A DNA stretch of 64,000 nt from a virus. The notes under the pieces are model-generated. The model searched no databases and was not told the origin of the DNA. It saw only the letters and a list, made by a program, of their open reading frames with translations. The position numbers were made by a program, and so were the translations under genes. Below are positions 33,479-36,974 of the stretch, piece after piece. The DNA lies in IMG/VR virus record IMGVR_UViG_3300021963_005267, positions 32,001 through 96,000 of that record. The stretch is one strand, 5' to 3'. Numbering within the stretch: the first letter of the stretch is position 1; each line of letters opens with the position of its first letter.

Positions 33479-34537
33479 ATGTCAGGCCGTCCTGCTCAAC
33501 GTCTAACTGACAAAAACAGCGCCGGTGGTGTTATAGTTAACACCGACGGTAATACCAATGTTTATACAAACAATCTGTTATCGTCAGTTGACACTAGCGT
33601 CGTAGACTATCAGCCAGGAAATACAGCCACAGCCAGCGGTAGTGGCGTTGTGTTTATTGCCAATCAACCGTTTAACTATACTGATAATGCAGACGAAGAT
33701 GGTGCTGTGAGAATCGGTGGTAGTGACAGTGTATATGTGGGCGATGATATAGATCAGGACACAATAGAAACAAGAGCAGTTAATGAAGGTGACGAAGAAG
33801 ATCTATACGAACCAGATCCAGTGGCGCCAGGACAGCCACAACCTACTAGTCGTGGCCAGGTTTACATGGAGAAGCAGGTTGCACAAGGTAAAGTTAGCCA
33901 GAAAGAATTAAACAAAGCTAACACACCCGTAGAAGGTAATACTGACTCTAAGCCGCCAAACAATCCTACAACATTTGATAGCAACTGCGCTGATATACAT
34001 TTAATATTCAATCCTATTCCTCCTGCTGTTGCACCGACAGGAGATGCAATTGATGCCGTGCCGTTAACTACAGGATGGACTGTAGGTAGACTTACGCGAA
34101 GACCTAATGTAACTTTCAATCATCCATTGAGGGCACCTAGTGTAGGTTTAAGTGTTGAAGAGATTGTATGCAATCTTAAATTGCTCACAGTAAATTGCAT
34201 CGTCCCTATAAAGGCTAGGTTTCCAAATGTGTTCATAACTAACACGTTTAGACCATCGGGCATTGGTTCTCCTACTAGTCAACATCCTAGGGGACAAGCT
34301 GCTGATATGCAGTTCAGGGGCGTGACTAAAAAAGACTATTTTGAAATAGCACAGGTCATTAAGGATCTAGTACCGTATGACCAATTGTTGTTAGAATATA
34401 AAACTACAGGTTCAGGGTTACCCTGGATACATATAAGTTTTAACAAAGCAGGTAACCGAAGGCAGGTTTTAACGTTCTTGAACGATAGAACTTATGCACA
34501 AGGTTTAAAAGATTTATCAGGGACAGCATTACAATGA
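33479..34537 (+). CDS. PAAR-like N-terminal domain fused to C-terminal M15-family zinc peptidase
   Basis: PAQRLTD...TASGSGVVFIANQP...GGSDSVYVGD; C-terminal FRP..SQHPRGQAADM (HxxxxxxD) and WIHIS. Confidence 0.75.
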   Translation: MSGRPAQRLTDKNSAGGVIVNTDGNTNVYTNNLLSSVDTSVVDYQPGNTATASGSGVVFIANQPFNYTDNADEDGAVRIGGSDSVYVGDDIDQDTIETRAVNEGDEEDLYEPDPVAPGQPQPTSRGQVYMEKQVAQGKVSQKELNKANTPVEGNTDSKPPNNPTTFDSNCADIHLIFNPIPPAVAPTGDAIDAVPLTTGWTVGRLTRRPNVTFNHPLRAPSVGLSVEEIVCNLKLLTVNCIVPIKARFPNVFITNTFRPSGIGSPTSQHPRGQAADMQFRGVTKKDYFEIAQVIKDLVPYDQLLLEYKTTGSGLPWIHISFNKAGNRRQVLTFLNDRTYAQGLKDLSGTALQ

Positions 34538-34944
34538 AAAAATTATTTTGGAACGTATTAGGATTTTTAAGTTTAGGAATGGCCTATATTGGTGTTATTA
34601 CTCCGGGCATTCCCTACAGTCCGTTCGTAGTATTTGCCGCATATTGTTTTAGCAAAGGCAGCGAACGCATGCACCGTTGGATTTATAATCATAAGTTATT
34701 TGGACCATTCCTAACTAATTGGAATACCAAACGTGTATTTCCACAAAAGATGAAATACTTTATGATCGGTATGATGTCATTAAGTTTAATACTAATGTAT
34801 ACTGGAGGTGTTAAGCCAATTGGTATCGTTAGCACAGCTATATTCATGGCATTAGTAGCAATTTGGGCTTGGAGATTTCCAAGCAGTGTTGAAGAACACG
34901 ATCGTAGAAAAGAAGCAGGGGAGAAAATAGGTTGGCTAAAATAA
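34534..34944 (+). CDS. YbaN/DUF454-family inner membrane protein
   Basis: IGVITPGIPYSPFVVFAAYCFSKGSERMHRWI..HKLFGP. Confidence 0.85.
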   Translation: MKKLFWNVLGFLSLGMAYIGVITPGIPYSPFVVFAAYCFSKGSERMHRWIYNHKLFGPFLTNWNTKRVFPQKMKYFMIGMMSLSLILMYTGGVKPIGIVSTAIFMALVAIWAWRFPSSVEEHDRRKEAGEKIGWLK

Positions 34945-35189
34945 CTATAGAAGAACTTTGCGATATCGCATTCGCTGCTGAAGAGGGCGACCCAATTGAT
35001 TGGGGAGTGTTTGCAGATGGCAAAGAACAGGCAATGAGAATGATTGGTACTAGCATTTTGGACCAATTTGACAAAGATATTGTAACGGACGAAGATCGTT
35101 TGATTATGCTGTCTACTATTACTAAGTTAGTAACAGAAAATTTCGTTTTGAACGCAAAGCTCTTGCAATTAACCAAGAAAGATAGTTAA
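34932..35189 (+). CDS. Hypothetical protein
   Basis: TTG start with GGGGAG SD. Confidence 0.55.
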   Translation: MAKITIEELCDIAFAAEEGDPIDWGVFADGKEQAMRMIGTSILDQFDKDIVTDEDRLIMLSTITKLVTENFVLNAKLLQLTKKDS

Positions 35190-35192
35190 ATA

Positions 35193-35276
35193 ATGTTGTT
35201 AGATCTTTTATTTTTAGCAATCATTGGTGCCGCTTTCTATTGGTGGATTGATTGGCGCAACAAACATAAGGAATGA
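35193..35276 (+). CDS. 27-aa single-TM peptide (MLLDLLFLAIIGAAFYWWIDWRNKHKE), not in ORF track
   Basis: Hydrophobic N-terminus with basic tail; fills the gap before the next peptide. Confidence 0.45.
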   Translation: MLLDLLFLAIIGAAFYWWIDWRNKHKE

Positions 35277-35278
35277 TT

Positions 35279-35362
35279 ATGGGACGATTAGTTCAAAAAA
35301 GAGCAGCAAAGACGAAAAAAGCTCAACGTCAAAAAGATACACGCAGAGCTCGTAGTAAGTAA
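35279..35362 (+). CDS. 27-aa basic peptide (MGRLVQKRAAKTKKAQRQKDTRRARSK), not in ORF track
   Basis: TAAGGA SD upstream; 11 Lys/Arg residues. Confidence 0.6.
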   Translation: MGRLVQKRAAKTKKAQRQKDTRRARSK

Positions 35363-35364
35363 TC

Positions 35365-35442
35365 ATGGCTAGAAAATGGCGAGCACATCATAAGAGCTCT
35401 GTTCGTGCAACAGCACGTAGAGTTCTTAAGAAACGTAAGTAA
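35365..35442 (+). CDS. 25-aa basic peptide (MARKWRAHHKSSVRATARRVLKKRK), not in ORF track
   Basis: Starts 2 nt after the previous stop and ends just before the tmRNA. Confidence 0.55.
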   Translation: MARKWRAHHKSSVRATARRVLKKRK

Positions 35443-35797
35443 AGAATTGTTGTAACTCCTTCAAAGCGAAGGACTCTTGGACGCGGGTTCGACTCCCGCC
35501 AGGTCCACCATAAAATGTTTTTGTTGAGCTTGATGCTTTGACTGATCAACATAGCTACATAGGGTAGATAAGAACATTTTATAATGGGCCTGCACTGGTT
35601 TCGACAGGGGTAGATAGTAGAGACGGCAACACGGTAGGCGATGACCGTAAATCAAGCAAAACAAGTAAACGCAAACGCATTTACATCACAAGAGTTATTC
35701 GTAGTTAAAAGCGTTAAATTCGCTGCTAACGACGAAATGCTACAAGCAGCCTAATAAGCAACTCCGGGGCAGTTATGCCTTGTTACCCAAAATAACA
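35443..35797 (+). ncRNA. ssrA: Circularly permuted two-piece tmRNA: acceptor piece ending CCA at 35510, intervening segment 35511-35585, coding piece from 35586, tag frame 35671-35754; outer ends approximate
   Basis: T-arm GCGGG-TTCGACT-CCCGC then CAGGTCC-A-CCA; downstream GGGCCTG completes the acceptor stem with G3:U70; TTCGAC then AGGGGT pairs with ACTCTT; pk1-like ACGGT/ACCGT; TAAAC-GCA resume context; tag ends AA followed by two stops. Confidence 0.92.
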
Positions 35798-35826
35798 GAA
35801 ATGGCTACTTCGGTAGCCATTTTTTT
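35798..35826 (+). terminator. Intrinsic terminator after tmRNA
   Basis: AATGGCTAC-TTCG-GTAGCCATT plus T tract. Confidence 0.9.
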
Positions 35827-35827
35827 A

Positions 35828-35856
35828 TTGACAACATCCTAAAAGTATCATACACT
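35828..35856 (+). promoter_or_regulatory. sigma70 promoter
   Basis: TTGACA-17 nt-TACACT. Confidence 0.75.
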
Positions 35857-35897
35857 TAACCCGTAAACACATTTATCAACTCTTTTTGAAAGCTTTT

Positions 35898-36974
35898 ATG
35901 TCTTACTTTCTTAAATCAGGAAACACGTTCAAAGTCAGCACCAAAGAAGCAATGGATCTACACGATCACTTGCCCGTTGGTACTTACACAGTTGGCTTTG
36001 ACAAAATGAACGGTAATTTCTTCCTAGAGGAAATTGATTCATTTGAAATCAAAGGCAAGCTCTACGGAGATACCACACGTCATGCAGATCGAATCATTAG
36101 GACCTTTAATGATCGAGGTGCCAGCACCGGTGTAATGCTTACTGGTGAAAAGGGCAGCGGTAAAACACTACTGACCAAGCAGATCGCTATTAATGCTGCC
36201 AAAGAAGGTGTACCAACTATCGTTATCAATCAACCATGGTGCGGTGAAGGATTTAATGCTTTTATGCAAATGATCGAGCAGCCTACTATTGTGTTGTTTG
36301 ATGAGTTTGAAAAAGTGTATGATCGTGATGATCAGGAAAAGATGCTGACCTTGCTTGACGGTGTATATCCTAGCAAGAAACTGTTCTTGTTGACCTGTAA
36401 CGACAAGTGGCGTGTAGATAGCCATATGCGTAATCGTCCAGGCCGTATCTTTTACATGATTGACTTCAAAGGCCTTGACATGGATTTCATCAAAGAATAC
36501 TGCGAGGATAATCTAGAAGCCAAAGAACACATTATGACTATCTGCCGTATCGCTAGCTTGTTCGGCCAGTTTAACTTTGATATGCTCAAAGCAATGGTTG
36601 AAGAAATGAATCGCTACGGCGAAACTCCTCAAGATGTTCTTAAGCTGTTGAATGCTAAACCAGAGTTCAGCGATGAATCTCGTTACAAAGTTGAACTGCA
36701 AGTTGATGGTATTGATATCAAAGACGAAGTTGTTGAGACTCGCGAATGGCATGGTAATCCTCTCATCAAAGGTGTTAGCATTGATTACAAAAAGATCGAT
36801 GGCAAAGATGATGACGGTGATGATGTTTGGGATTGGGAACACTTGGCATTTACTACTAACGATCTTAAGCAGGTCGATCCTAATACTAACAAGTTCATTT
36901 TTATGGATGACGATGGTAACCGTTTGGTGCTGACTAAGATCAAAGAAAAGAGCTGGCACTATGATGCTTTCTAA
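35898..36974 (+). CDS. AAA+ ATPase
   Basis: Walker A GEKGSGKT, Walker B VLFDEFEK, LLTCN, RNRPGRI; start reassigned to MSYFLK. Confidence 0.9.
   Translation: MSYFLKSGNTFKVSTKEAMDLHDHLPVGTYTVGFDKMNGNFFLEEIDSFEIKGKLYGDTTRHADRIIRTFNDRGASTGVMLTGEKGSGKTLLTKQIAINAAKEGVPTIVINQPWCGEGFNAFMQMIEQPTIVLFDEFEKVYDRDDQEKMLTLLDGVYPSKKLFLLTCNDKWRVDSHMRNRPGRIFYMIDFKGLDMDFIKEYCEDNLEAKEHIMTICRIASLFGQFNFDMLKAMVEEMNRYGETPQDVLKLLNAKPEFSDESRYKVELQVDGIDIKDEVVETREWHGNPLIKGVSIDYKKIDGKDDDGDDVWDWEHLAFTTNDLKQVDPNTNKFIFMDDDGNRLVLTKIKEKSWHYDAF

What the first reader, a model, noticed from the sequence alone, without database searches (positions are those of the whole stretch)
35279..35442. Two tiny Lys/Arg-rich peptides directly upstream of the tmRNA resemble eL41/bS22-type ribosomal peptides
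Seen: back-to-back ORFs MGRLVQKRAAKTKKAQRQKDTRRARSK (27 aa, good SD) and MARKWRAHHKSSVRATARRVLKKRK (25 aa), ending where the tmRNA begins. Established: eL41 is a 25-aa basic helix starting MRAKWR and, in yeast, ending RARSK; mycobacterial bS22 starts MGSVIKKR and occupies an equivalent rRNA pocket. Peptide 2 starts MARKWR; peptide 1 starts MGRLVQKR and ends RARSK. Inference: phage ribosome-binding micropeptides co-expressed with tmRNA, modifying host ribosomes or rescue. Low complexity makes chance similarity a real possibility.
Basis: partly seen in the sequence, partly recalled or inferred. Interest (0 to 1): 0.7.

Follow-up and report, generated by a model that had tools for sequence, protein, structure and literature searches.

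The report
Conserved basic micropeptide genes before phage tmRNA
Two tiny, very positively charged peptide genes just upstream of a huge phage's tmRNA are real, conserved genes of a previously unannotated phage-only family, but they show no demonstrable kinship to eL41 or bS22 and their target is still unknown.

Summary
They end 5 nt before a permuted, betaproteobacterial-type tmRNA in a fragment of a huge phage.

They are not chance ORFs. Homologues occur in more than 50 other viral contigs. Nearly all have Shine-Dalgarno sites, and synonymous change far exceeds non-synonymous change (pS 0.27-0.87, pN 0.09-0.42). Variation sits at third codon positions, and only this frame is open in all 29 pep2-type variants.

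The family (21-35 aa, net charge +9 to +14, predicted helix) forms one tandem array of 1-4 paralogues per genome. About half of the arrays lie directly upstream of a tmRNA with no room for a separate promoter. The rest mostly abut iscU-iscA genes.

The pep2-type motif has no exact match in 185,579 prokaryote genomes, and tblastn found neither pep1 nor a pep2-type homologue in GenBank phages. eL41, bS22, bL35, Pfam, NCBIfam and PDB profiles give no significant match. The "eL41-like" details are not conserved among homologues.

Best reading: trans-acting polycationic RNA-binding micropeptides of a phage RNA/translation module. Ribosome binding is possible but unshown.

The scan had not noted this family on other DNA.

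The parts
35193..35276 (+). 27-aa hydrophobic (transmembrane-type) micropeptide gene at the head of the small-gene cassette
   Evidence: ORF. Homologous 31-36 aa peptides with the W-W-I-x-D-W motif hold the same slot before basic peptides or the tmRNA in L111, L178, L093, L129 and L206.
35267..35271 (+). Shine-Dalgarno (AAGGA) of pep1
   Evidence: Read from the sequence and scored. Homologues carry GGAG, AGGAG or AAGGA at the same distance.
35279..35362 (+). pep1: 27-aa basic micropeptide, 'A type' (MGRLV... start), net charge +11
   Evidence: Homologues in L111, L178 and L220-L222. pS 0.54-0.70 against pN 0.29-0.35 versus L111 and L178. Only this frame is open in all 5 variants.
35365..35442 (+). 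pep2: 25-aa basic micropeptide, 'B type' (core ...S-V-R-A-T-A-R-R-V-L-K-K-R-K), net charge +11, probably translationally coupled to pep1
   Evidence: The B-type motif is in 41 viral contigs. There are 29 distinct coding variants, and only this frame is open in all of them. Heterozygosity at codon positions 1/2/3 is 0.13/0.07/0.42. pS 0.48-0.56 against pN 0.16-0.18.
35448..35825 (+). Permuted (two-piece) tmRNA: acceptor piece first, then coding piece. Tag reading frame 35671-35757, coding a 27-residue tag.
   Evidence: Rfam RF04321 and RF01850, ARAGORN. Alignment with relatives' tmRNAs shows a ~45-nt insertion in the tag frame.
35799..35830 (+). Terminal hairpin of the tmRNA followed by a T-run: end of the transcription unit
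   Evidence: Sequence. The hairpin was detected, and it is the last helix of RF01850.
35828..35856 (+). Next sigma-70-like promoter (TTGACA-17-TACACT) for the AAA-ATPase gene; it bounds the cassette
   Evidence: 10 of 12 matches.

Best explanation
pep1 and pep2 are two paralogous members of a phage-only family of 21-35 aa polycationic, helix-forming micropeptides. Each genome carries them as a single tandem array of 1-4 genes, at the head of a small operon in an auxiliary RNA/translation/Fe-S gene region of freshwater huge phages. In this phage the operon runs: hydrophobic micropeptide, pep1, pep2, two-piece tmRNA, terminator. The peptide cistrons are therefore the translated 5' leader of the tmRNA precursor. 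The most likely action (inferred, not shown) is in trans. The abundant, strongly basic helices would bind structured RNA, as arginine-rich motifs and the tails of small ribosomal proteins do. The likely targets are the phage's own tmRNA, as a folding or annealing aid for a molecule made of two RNA chains, and/or host ribosomal RNA. They are not detectable homologues of eL41 or bS22.

Shown: the ORFs exist; they are under purifying selection as protein; there is one array per genome; they are frequently fused to a tmRNA transcription unit; no cellular or database homologues were found.

Inferred: translation, co-transcription, RNA binding, and the target.
For: Coding: Shine-Dalgarno sites occur before almost every member. 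pS is 0.27-0.87 against pN 0.09-0.42 in 16 pairs; for example 32 of 35 residues are identical despite 26 nucleotide differences. Third-position variation dominates, and this is the only frame open in 29 of 29 variants.

Specificity: a family HMM hits only these ORFs among 60,422 and then 70,710 stop-to-stop ORFs of 1.8 Mb of phage loci.

One array per genome. The family is absent from five large tmRNA-bearing relatives.

Linkage to tmRNA: 21 of 34 distinct arrays lie upstream of a tmRNA. With ascertainment independent of tmRNA, 16 of 36 B-type loci do. L107 is a minimal unit of promoter (11 of 12 matches), peptide, tmRNA and terminator. In the window there is a 5-nt gap and no internal promoter.

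Trans rather than cis action: the same peptide types precede both a non-coding RNA gene and protein genes (iscU).

Nucleic-acid-binder chemistry: net charge +9 to +14, at most one acidic residue, mean hydrophobicity -0.5 to -0.86. The conserved core is predicted helical, pLDDT 83.

Company kept: CspA-like RNA chaperone genes fill the same slot, directly before the tmRNA in 19 of 100 loci and within 700 nt in 35 of 100, sometimes together with the peptides.

No phage SmpB was found, so I infer that the phage tmRNA depends on host factors.
Against: There is no expression or binding data. The RNA runs covered only conserved tmRNA parts, so they are uninformative. About half of the arrays are not next to a tmRNA, and in G013 the tmRNA lies about 7.6 kb away. 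A dedicated tmRNA partnership is therefore not required. Most tmRNA-bearing relatives (about 85 of 100 loci) lack the family entirely. High positive charge fits DNA binding as well as RNA binding. The tmRNA-linked sample was partly ascertained through the tmRNA itself.
Confidence: 0.45

Rival explanations
1. One reading: the peptides are eL41/bS22-type ribosomal micropeptides, either homologues or specific mimics. They would occupy the h44/h45 pocket of the host small subunit and modify ribosomes or rescue.
For: Size, charge and helicity match this class. The pep1 type shares a 9-residue N-terminal pattern with bS22: hhalign P=0.011, and 1 of 200 column shuffles reaches the score. The family core shares a 12-13 residue motif with the N-terminal rRNA-binding arm of bL35: P=0.004-0.018, and 0 of 200 and 1 of 150 shuffles reach the score. 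Huge phages are known to carry translation genes (PMC7162821).
Against: Pfam Ribosomal_L41, COX24_C/bS22 and Ribosomal_L35p find nothing at E <= 10, though the bS22 and L35 models pass their cut-offs in control genomes (the eL41 model does so in none). Pfam, NCBIfam and PDB searches are empty. hhalign probabilities are only 2.6-8.7%, obtained after trying several candidates. The whole family against bS22 gives nothing. The eL41-like start and end of the window's peptides are not conserved in homologues. The family is missing from most related phages, and half of the arrays are unlinked to the tmRNA.
Confidence: 0.12
2. The peptides are protamine-like DNA binders. They would neutralise or condense DNA, either the host nucleoid or the phage genome for packaging, and their position next to the tmRNA is incidental.
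For: The cationic charge is extreme with almost no acidic residues. In some relatives an Hc1-like histone-like 64-aa gene lies just upstream of the array (the likeness to Hc1 is from my own knowledge and was not tested). The family is accessory, as many host-takeover genes are.
Against: The arrays sit in a metabolic/RNA region (NrdAB, radical SAM, iscUA, csp, tmRNA), not in a virion module. Non-basic positions are strongly conserved (for example A-H-H-P-R-S and K-A-T-A), which argues for a specific partner rather than bulk charge neutralisation.
Confidence: 0.15
3. The ORFs act mainly in cis. As efficiently translated leader cistrons, they would protect the transcript, drive translationally coupled expression of iscU, or time the folding and processing of the tmRNA 5' strand. 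The peptide product itself would be secondary.
For: The stop codon overlaps the iscU start (TAATG) in L220-L222. The pep2 stop codon lies 5 nt before the first helix strand of the tmRNA, so a terminating ribosome would cover that strand (the ribosome footprint is established knowledge). Of 100 tmRNA loci, 75 have some ORF ending at the tmRNA edge.
Against: Purifying selection acts on the amino-acid sequence along the whole peptide, while synonymous sites are nearly saturated. The same peptide types are kept before unrelated downstream genes. Tandem arrays of 2-4 diverged paralogues are hard to explain by a cis role.
Confidence: 0.12
4. The peptides are membrane-active cationic peptides (lysis 'disruptin' or antimicrobial type) that work with the neighbouring hydrophobic micropeptides and the endolysin-like gene.
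For: An endolysin-like M15 peptidase gene (33479-34537), a DUF454 membrane protein and a hydrophobic micropeptide lie just upstream.
Against: Mean hydrophobicity is strongly negative. Hydrophobic residues make up 24-41% and are mostly alanine, unlike membrane-lytic peptides. In relatives the arrays occur without any lysis genes nearby.
Confidence: 0.05

Closest known systems
bS22 / mS38 / eL41 class of tiny basic ribosomal peptides (Pfam PF08213, PF05162)
   Same: Length of 25-33 aa, pI above 12, single helix. The pep1 type shares an M-G-x-hydrophobic-hydrophobic-x-x-R start with bS22.
   Different: No profile match. hhalign probability is at most 3.9% over 9 columns. The family is phage-only and accessory, occurs in tandem paralogue arrays, and its eL41-like details are not conserved.
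N-terminal rRNA-penetrating arm of ribosomal protein bL35 (Pfam PF01632)
   Same: The family core K-x-K-[ST]-V-[KR]-A-x-A-[KR]-R parallels bL35's K-x-K-T-x-x-G-A-a-K-R-F. Against E. coli L35, 13 columns align at 62% identity, and shuffles rarely reach the score.
   Different: Only 12-13 residues align, at probability 2.6-8.7%. The Pfam L35 model does not hit the contigs. The peptides lack the rest of L35. I picked this candidate after the fact, so the resemblance is a lead, not kinship.
Arginine-rich-motif RNA-binding peptides (lambda N / P22 N type)
   Same: Short Ala/Arg/Lys-rich helix encoded by a phage; the chemistry suits binding of RNA hairpins (my own knowledge).
   Different: N proteins are about 100 aa with extra domains and act in antitermination. 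No boxB-like partner was identified and no sequence test was run.
tmRNA genes and translation genes of huge phages (Al-Shayeb et al. 2020, PMC7162821)
   Same: A huge-phage contig with a tmRNA. The paper reports tmRNAs and SmpB among huge-phage translation genes.
   Different: In the passages read, that paper does not mention peptide cistrons fused to the tmRNA transcript. This phage group carries no SmpB.

Membership tests
eL41 (Pfam PF05162 Ribosomal_L41) | Sequence matches the family profile | tested here: not met
   Six-frame search of the phage contig gave 0 hits at E <= 10. Pfam scans of both peptides and of 21 family members at E <= 10 gave none. PDB phmmer and profile searches gave no eL41 chain.
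eL41 (Pfam PF05162 Ribosomal_L41) | About 25 aa, extremely basic, single helix | tested here: met
   pep2 is 25 aa, 44% K+R, net charge +11. The family core is predicted helical. This feature is generic and does not discriminate.
   pep2 homologues begin M-A-K-[FW]-[KR]-A-H-H-P-R-S; the W is not conserved. pep1 homologues end R-R-R-N-K or R-R-K-N-K.
eL41 / bS22 | Occupies the rRNA pocket near h44/h45 at the subunit interface | not testable with these tools
   Needs ribosome binding assays or cryo-EM.
bS22 / mS38 (Pfam PF08213 COX24_C) | Sequence matches the family profile | tested here: not met
   0 hits at E <= 10 in the contig, while one control genome exceeds the cut-off. No hit for any of 21 members.
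bS22 / mS38 (Pfam PF08213 COX24_C) | Profile-profile similarity to authentic bS22 | tested here: inconclusive
   14 distinct bS22 sequences came from 80 actinobacterial loci. The whole family against bS22 gave nothing. The pep1 type aligned 9 N-terminal columns at P=0.011, probability 3.9%, and 1 of 200 column shuffles reached the score.
bL35 (Pfam PF01632) | Sequence matches the family profile | tested here: not met
   0 hits at E <= 10 in five peptide-bearing contigs, while 10 controls exceed the cut-off.
bL35 (Pfam PF01632) | N-terminal K-x-K-T...A-a-K-R-F arm motif | tested here: inconclusive
   hhalign against E. coli L35 aligned 13 columns at 62% identity, P=0.018. Against a 30-sequence L35 profile, P=0.013; against its N-terminal 30 columns, P=0.004. 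Shuffles reaching the score: 0 of 200, 0 of 200 and 1 of 150. Probabilities are only 2.6-8.7%, and the candidate was chosen post hoc.
C-terminal mRNA-channel tail of ArfB | Similarity to the basic tail motif (K-S-S-V-K-A-M-R) | tested here: not met
   hhalign P=0.096; 20 of 200 shuffles reach the score.
Permuted tmRNA (Rfam RF04321 / RF01850), the neighbouring gene | Covariance-model match above the gathering score | tested here: met
   129.5 bits against a threshold of 47, and 121.8 bits against 84. ARAGORN calls a permuted tmRNA.

The most novel reading that the evidence does not exclude
The family could be a set of phage-made 'add-on' ribosome or rescue peptides. Produced from the tmRNA precursor's own leader, they would dock onto host rRNA, perhaps through the bL35-arm-like or bS22-like motif, or onto the two-piece tmRNA. 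That would bias translation or trans-translation toward the phage. It would be a new class of virus-encoded ribosome-modifying micropeptides that gene callers miss.
Probability: 0.2. Interest if true: 0.85.

Novelty: new variant of a known kind. Interest (0 to 1): 0.6.

Why it matters
Gene callers skip ORFs under about 30 codons. This family appears in public protein sets only as four mis-extended representative clusters among 1.84 billion cluster representatives. It is nevertheless strongly conserved: pep2-type copies share 19-22 of 24 residues while synonymous sites are about half changed.

Its repeated fusion to the tmRNA transcription unit makes a testable link between virus-encoded micropeptides and ribosome rescue or RNA folding. 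If the peptides bind ribosomes or tmRNA, they would add a new layer to how large phages take over host translation. If they bind DNA or act in cis, they still mark a recurrent, compact small-gene cassette (hydrophobic micropeptides, Csp, basic peptides, tmRNA) that has not been described.

Tried and rejected
- **Synteny via the AAA-ATPase gene.** In 60 related loci the cassette is not syntenic. The closest syntenic locus, L019, has a CUA-anticodon tRNA plus other genes in its place.
- The search for related loci and the search for homologous proteins.
- **Empty database searches.** The profile search of 1.84 billion representative proteins returned only four mis-called copies of the same phage ORFs. 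The ESM Atlas scores were all below 0.9 and uninformative. tblastn of a pep2-type homologue (L106) and of pep1 against GenBank phages found no match, though the low-complexity filter was on.
- **Weak HTH_3 match.** The 35-aa type matches HTH_3 below threshold (E about 0.001, 18 bits against a cut-off of 23). It covers only a fragment of that domain, so I did not pursue it.
- **ArfB-tail mimicry.** Rejected. The ArfB homologue search returned only near-identical E. coli sequences.
- **SmpB N-terminus.** A likeness to the E. coli SmpB N-terminus was recalled from memory only and was not tested.
- **A -1 frameshift fusing pep1 to pep2.** A TAG at 35353-35355 in the pep2 frame blocks it.
- **Expression evidence.** The three RNA-labelled runs laid on 34900-36000 covered only conserved tmRNA parts, apparently from relatives, and not the peptide region. 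This gives no verdict on expression.
- **Opposite-strand ORFs.** None is open across homologues.
- **Unpublished genomes.** G023 and G040 appeared.

Full report
**What is there**

The window is part of a 106.6-kb IMG/VR virus contig that CheckV estimates as 30% complete, so it is a fragment of a huge phage. The two ORFs are at the stated coordinates with the stated products.

- pep1 is 35279-35362, 27 aa, with an AAGGA Shine-Dalgarno 7 nt upstream.
- pep2 is 35365-35442, 25 aa, and starts 2 nt after the pep1 stop codon.
- A 27-aa hydrophobic ORF (35193-35276) directly precedes them.
- Five nucleotides after the pep2 stop codon a permuted tmRNA begins. RF04321 covers 35448-35754 at 129.5 bits; the betaproteobacterial two-piece model RF01850 covers 35413-35825 at 121.8 bits; ARAGORN agrees.
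- The tmRNA ends in a hairpin plus T-run. A strong promoter for the next gene follows at 35828-35856.
- No promoter is predicted between the peptides and the tmRNA.

Neighbouring genes are NrdA, NrdB, a radical-SAM protein, an endolysin-like M15 peptidase, a DUF454 membrane protein and an AAA ATPase. This is an auxiliary region, not a virion module.

**Are the ORFs genes?**

Loci found through the ATPase neighbour did not share the cassette. I therefore searched viral contigs for a 32-nt stretch of the tmRNA's tRNA-like domain.

In about 15 of the 112 loci with enough upstream DNA, small K/R-rich ORFs lie just before the tmRNA. They include clear homologues of pep1 (L111, L178) and of pep2 (L106, L126, L146), plus further types.

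- Nearly all have GGAG, AGGAG or AAGGA sites at the right distance.
- In 16 pairwise comparisons, synonymous divergence is 0.27-0.87 per site against 0.09-0.42 non-synonymous. One pair keeps 32 of 35 residues despite 26 nucleotide differences.
- Searching viral contigs for a degenerate pep2-type motif, independently of any tmRNA, gave 41 contigs.
- Among the 29 distinct coding variants, only the proposed frame is open in all. Heterozygosity is 0.13, 0.07 and 0.42 at codon positions 1, 2 and 3.
- A family HMM hits only these ORFs among 60,422, and later 70,710, stop-to-stop ORFs.

Chance ORFs are excluded.

**Anatomy of the family**

Members are 21-35 aa with net charge +9 to +14, at most one acidic residue and strongly negative mean hydrophobicity. 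AlphaFold2 predicts the conserved core, [ST]-V-[KR]-A-x-A-[KR]-R-x-x-[KR]-[KR]-[KR], as an alpha-helix with mean pLDDT 83 for the 35-aa type.

Several paralogous types exist. They form one tandem array of 1-4 genes per genome, often with overlapping or abutting stop and start codons. The own contig has only these two copies. Five large tmRNA-bearing relatives, two of them at least 97% complete, have none at all, so the family is accessory.

The pep2-type motif has no exact match in one genome each of 185,579 prokaryote species. tblastn found neither pep1 nor a pep2-type homologue in GenBank phage records. In 1.84 billion representative proteins the family appears only as four mis-extended ORF calls.

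**Relation to the tmRNA**

Of 34 distinct arrays, 21 lie upstream of a tmRNA on the same strand, 11 lie directly upstream of iscU-iscA genes, and 2 are in other contexts.

Without tmRNA-based ascertainment, 16 of 36 informative pep2-type loci have a tmRNA within about 0.8 kb downstream. Of the six pep1-type loci, three precede a tmRNA and three overlap the iscU start (TAATG).

In L107 the unit is minimal: an 11-of-12 sigma-70 promoter, one 23-aa peptide gene, the tmRNA and a terminator. So the peptide cistrons often are the translated leader of the tmRNA precursor.

This layout is not special to the basic peptides, however. In 75 of 100 distinct tmRNA loci some ORF ends at the tmRNA edge:

- a CspA-like gene in 19 loci;
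- a 22-aa hydrophobic micropeptide in 18;
- a basic peptide in 7;
- iscA in 1;
- other ORFs in 30.

A csp gene lies within 700 nt upstream in 35 of the 100 loci. Where the peptides are not adjacent to a tmRNA, the phage can still carry one several kb away. None of the genomes tested encodes SmpB.

**Comparison with eL41, bS22 and other small basic RNA binders**

Pfam, NCBIfam, PHROG and PDB searches gave nothing for either peptide or for the family profile, even at E <= 10. Six-frame searches of the phage contig with Pfam Ribosomal_L41 and COX24_C (the bS22/mS38 family, as the bS22 preprint 10.1101/2023.03.31.535098 states) gave no hit. The bS22 (COX24_C) model passed its cut-off in one control genome; the eL41 model passed its cut-off in none, so its negative result lacks a working positive control.

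I fetched 80 actinobacterial bS22 genes, which gave 14 sequences for the profile. Profile-profile comparison with the whole family found nothing. With the pep1 type alone it aligned 9 N-terminal columns at P=0.011, probability 3.9%, and 1 of 200 column shuffles reached that score.

- **ArfB tail.** Likeness to its mRNA-channel tail is at chance level.
- **bL35 N-terminal arm.** This was the best resemblance I found. Twelve to thirteen columns align, at 62% identity to E. coli L35. hhalign gives P=0.004-0.018, and shuffles almost never reach the score. However, the probability is under 9%, the Pfam L35 model does not hit the contigs, and I chose the candidate after the fact. It is a lead, not kinship.

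**Mechanism**

Several facts point to a trans-acting peptide with a specific, conserved nucleic-acid partner:

- selection acts on the amino-acid sequence along the whole peptide;
- diverged paralogues are kept side by side;
- the same types sit before both an RNA gene and protein genes;
- the chemistry is that of a polycationic, poorly hydrophobic helix.

The repeated fusion to the tmRNA unit and the company of Csp RNA chaperones favour RNA over DNA. The candidates are the two-piece tmRNA itself, whose two chains must find each other, or host rRNA. I put this at about 0.45, of which a true eL41/bS22-site ribosomal role is about 0.12.

DNA condensation, a mainly cis leader role and membrane activity are the rivals. 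One structural point follows from the sequence: a ribosome terminating at the pep2 stop codon would cover the 5' strand of the tmRNA's closing helix (35448 onward). Translation and tmRNA folding on one transcript are therefore coupled in time. Whether that matters is untested.

**What could not be done**

No expression evidence could be obtained. No RNA-peptide modelling tool was available. The host is unknown; the betaproteobacterial tmRNA type and the freshwater and estuarine holders only suggest a freshwater betaproteobacterium.

**Verdict**

The specific eL41/bS22 interpretation is not supported. The family is a new, unannotated set of phage micropeptide genes of a broadly known chemical kind, with an unresolved target.

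Noticed in passing
L011-L013, L019-L022, L024, L028-L030, L041, L048 (e.g. L019:2764-2839): Many related huge-phage loci carry a tRNA with a CUA anticodon (ARAGORN labels it 'Pyl') near the AAA-ATPase gene. In L019 it sits where the window has the peptide-tmRNA cassette. This suggests amber suppression or TAG recoding in relatives.
   Followed up: no
window 35671-35757: The tmRNA tag frame codes 27 residues because of a ~45-nt insertion relative to relatives, whose tags have 10 residues. Comparably long tags occur in L106, L146, L197, L206 and L213, so long-tag variants are a conserved subgroup.
   Followed up: partly
window 35193-35276; L093, L111, L129, L178, L206: A conserved 27-36 aa transmembrane-type micropeptide with the motif W-W-I-x-D-W-[HRK] heads the cassette in several phages.
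   Followed up: partly
L063, L073, L079, L085, L091, L092, L094 and others: A different 22-aa very hydrophobic micropeptide (M-K-A-Y-Q-F-I-V...) ends exactly at the tmRNA edge in 18 of 100 loci, usually after a cspA-like gene. It resembles type-I-toxin-like peptides in size and composition.
   Followed up: no
L064, L069, L071, L077, L081, L084, L087 and others: A 67-aa CspA-like cold-shock gene lies directly upstream of the phage tmRNA in 19 of 100 loci and within 700 nt in 35 of 100. This suggests an RNA-chaperone/tmRNA module.
   Followed up: partly
L187, L189, L190, L195, L202, L208, L212, L220-L222; L068: Phage iscU- and iscA-like Fe-S assembly genes follow the basic peptide arrays, with stop and start codons abutting or overlapping. 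In L068 iscA itself abuts the tmRNA.
   Followed up: partly
L189, L190, L220-L222 (about 20-430 nt upstream of the peptide array): A 64-aa basic protein whose central motif recalls Hc1-type histone-like proteins (from my own knowledge, not tested) lies a short way upstream of the arrays in iscU contexts.
   Followed up: no
window 33479-34537: This 352-aa protein has a weak PAAR-like N-terminus and a peptidase-M15/endolysin-like C-terminus (PHROG endolysin, E=2e-12). Its C-terminus is also found next to the cassette in L173.
   Followed up: no
L217, L185, L193, L204, L210: ARAGORN missed permuted tmRNAs that blastn against known relatives detected. Counts of phage tmRNAs based on ARAGORN alone are therefore underestimates.
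   Followed up: yes
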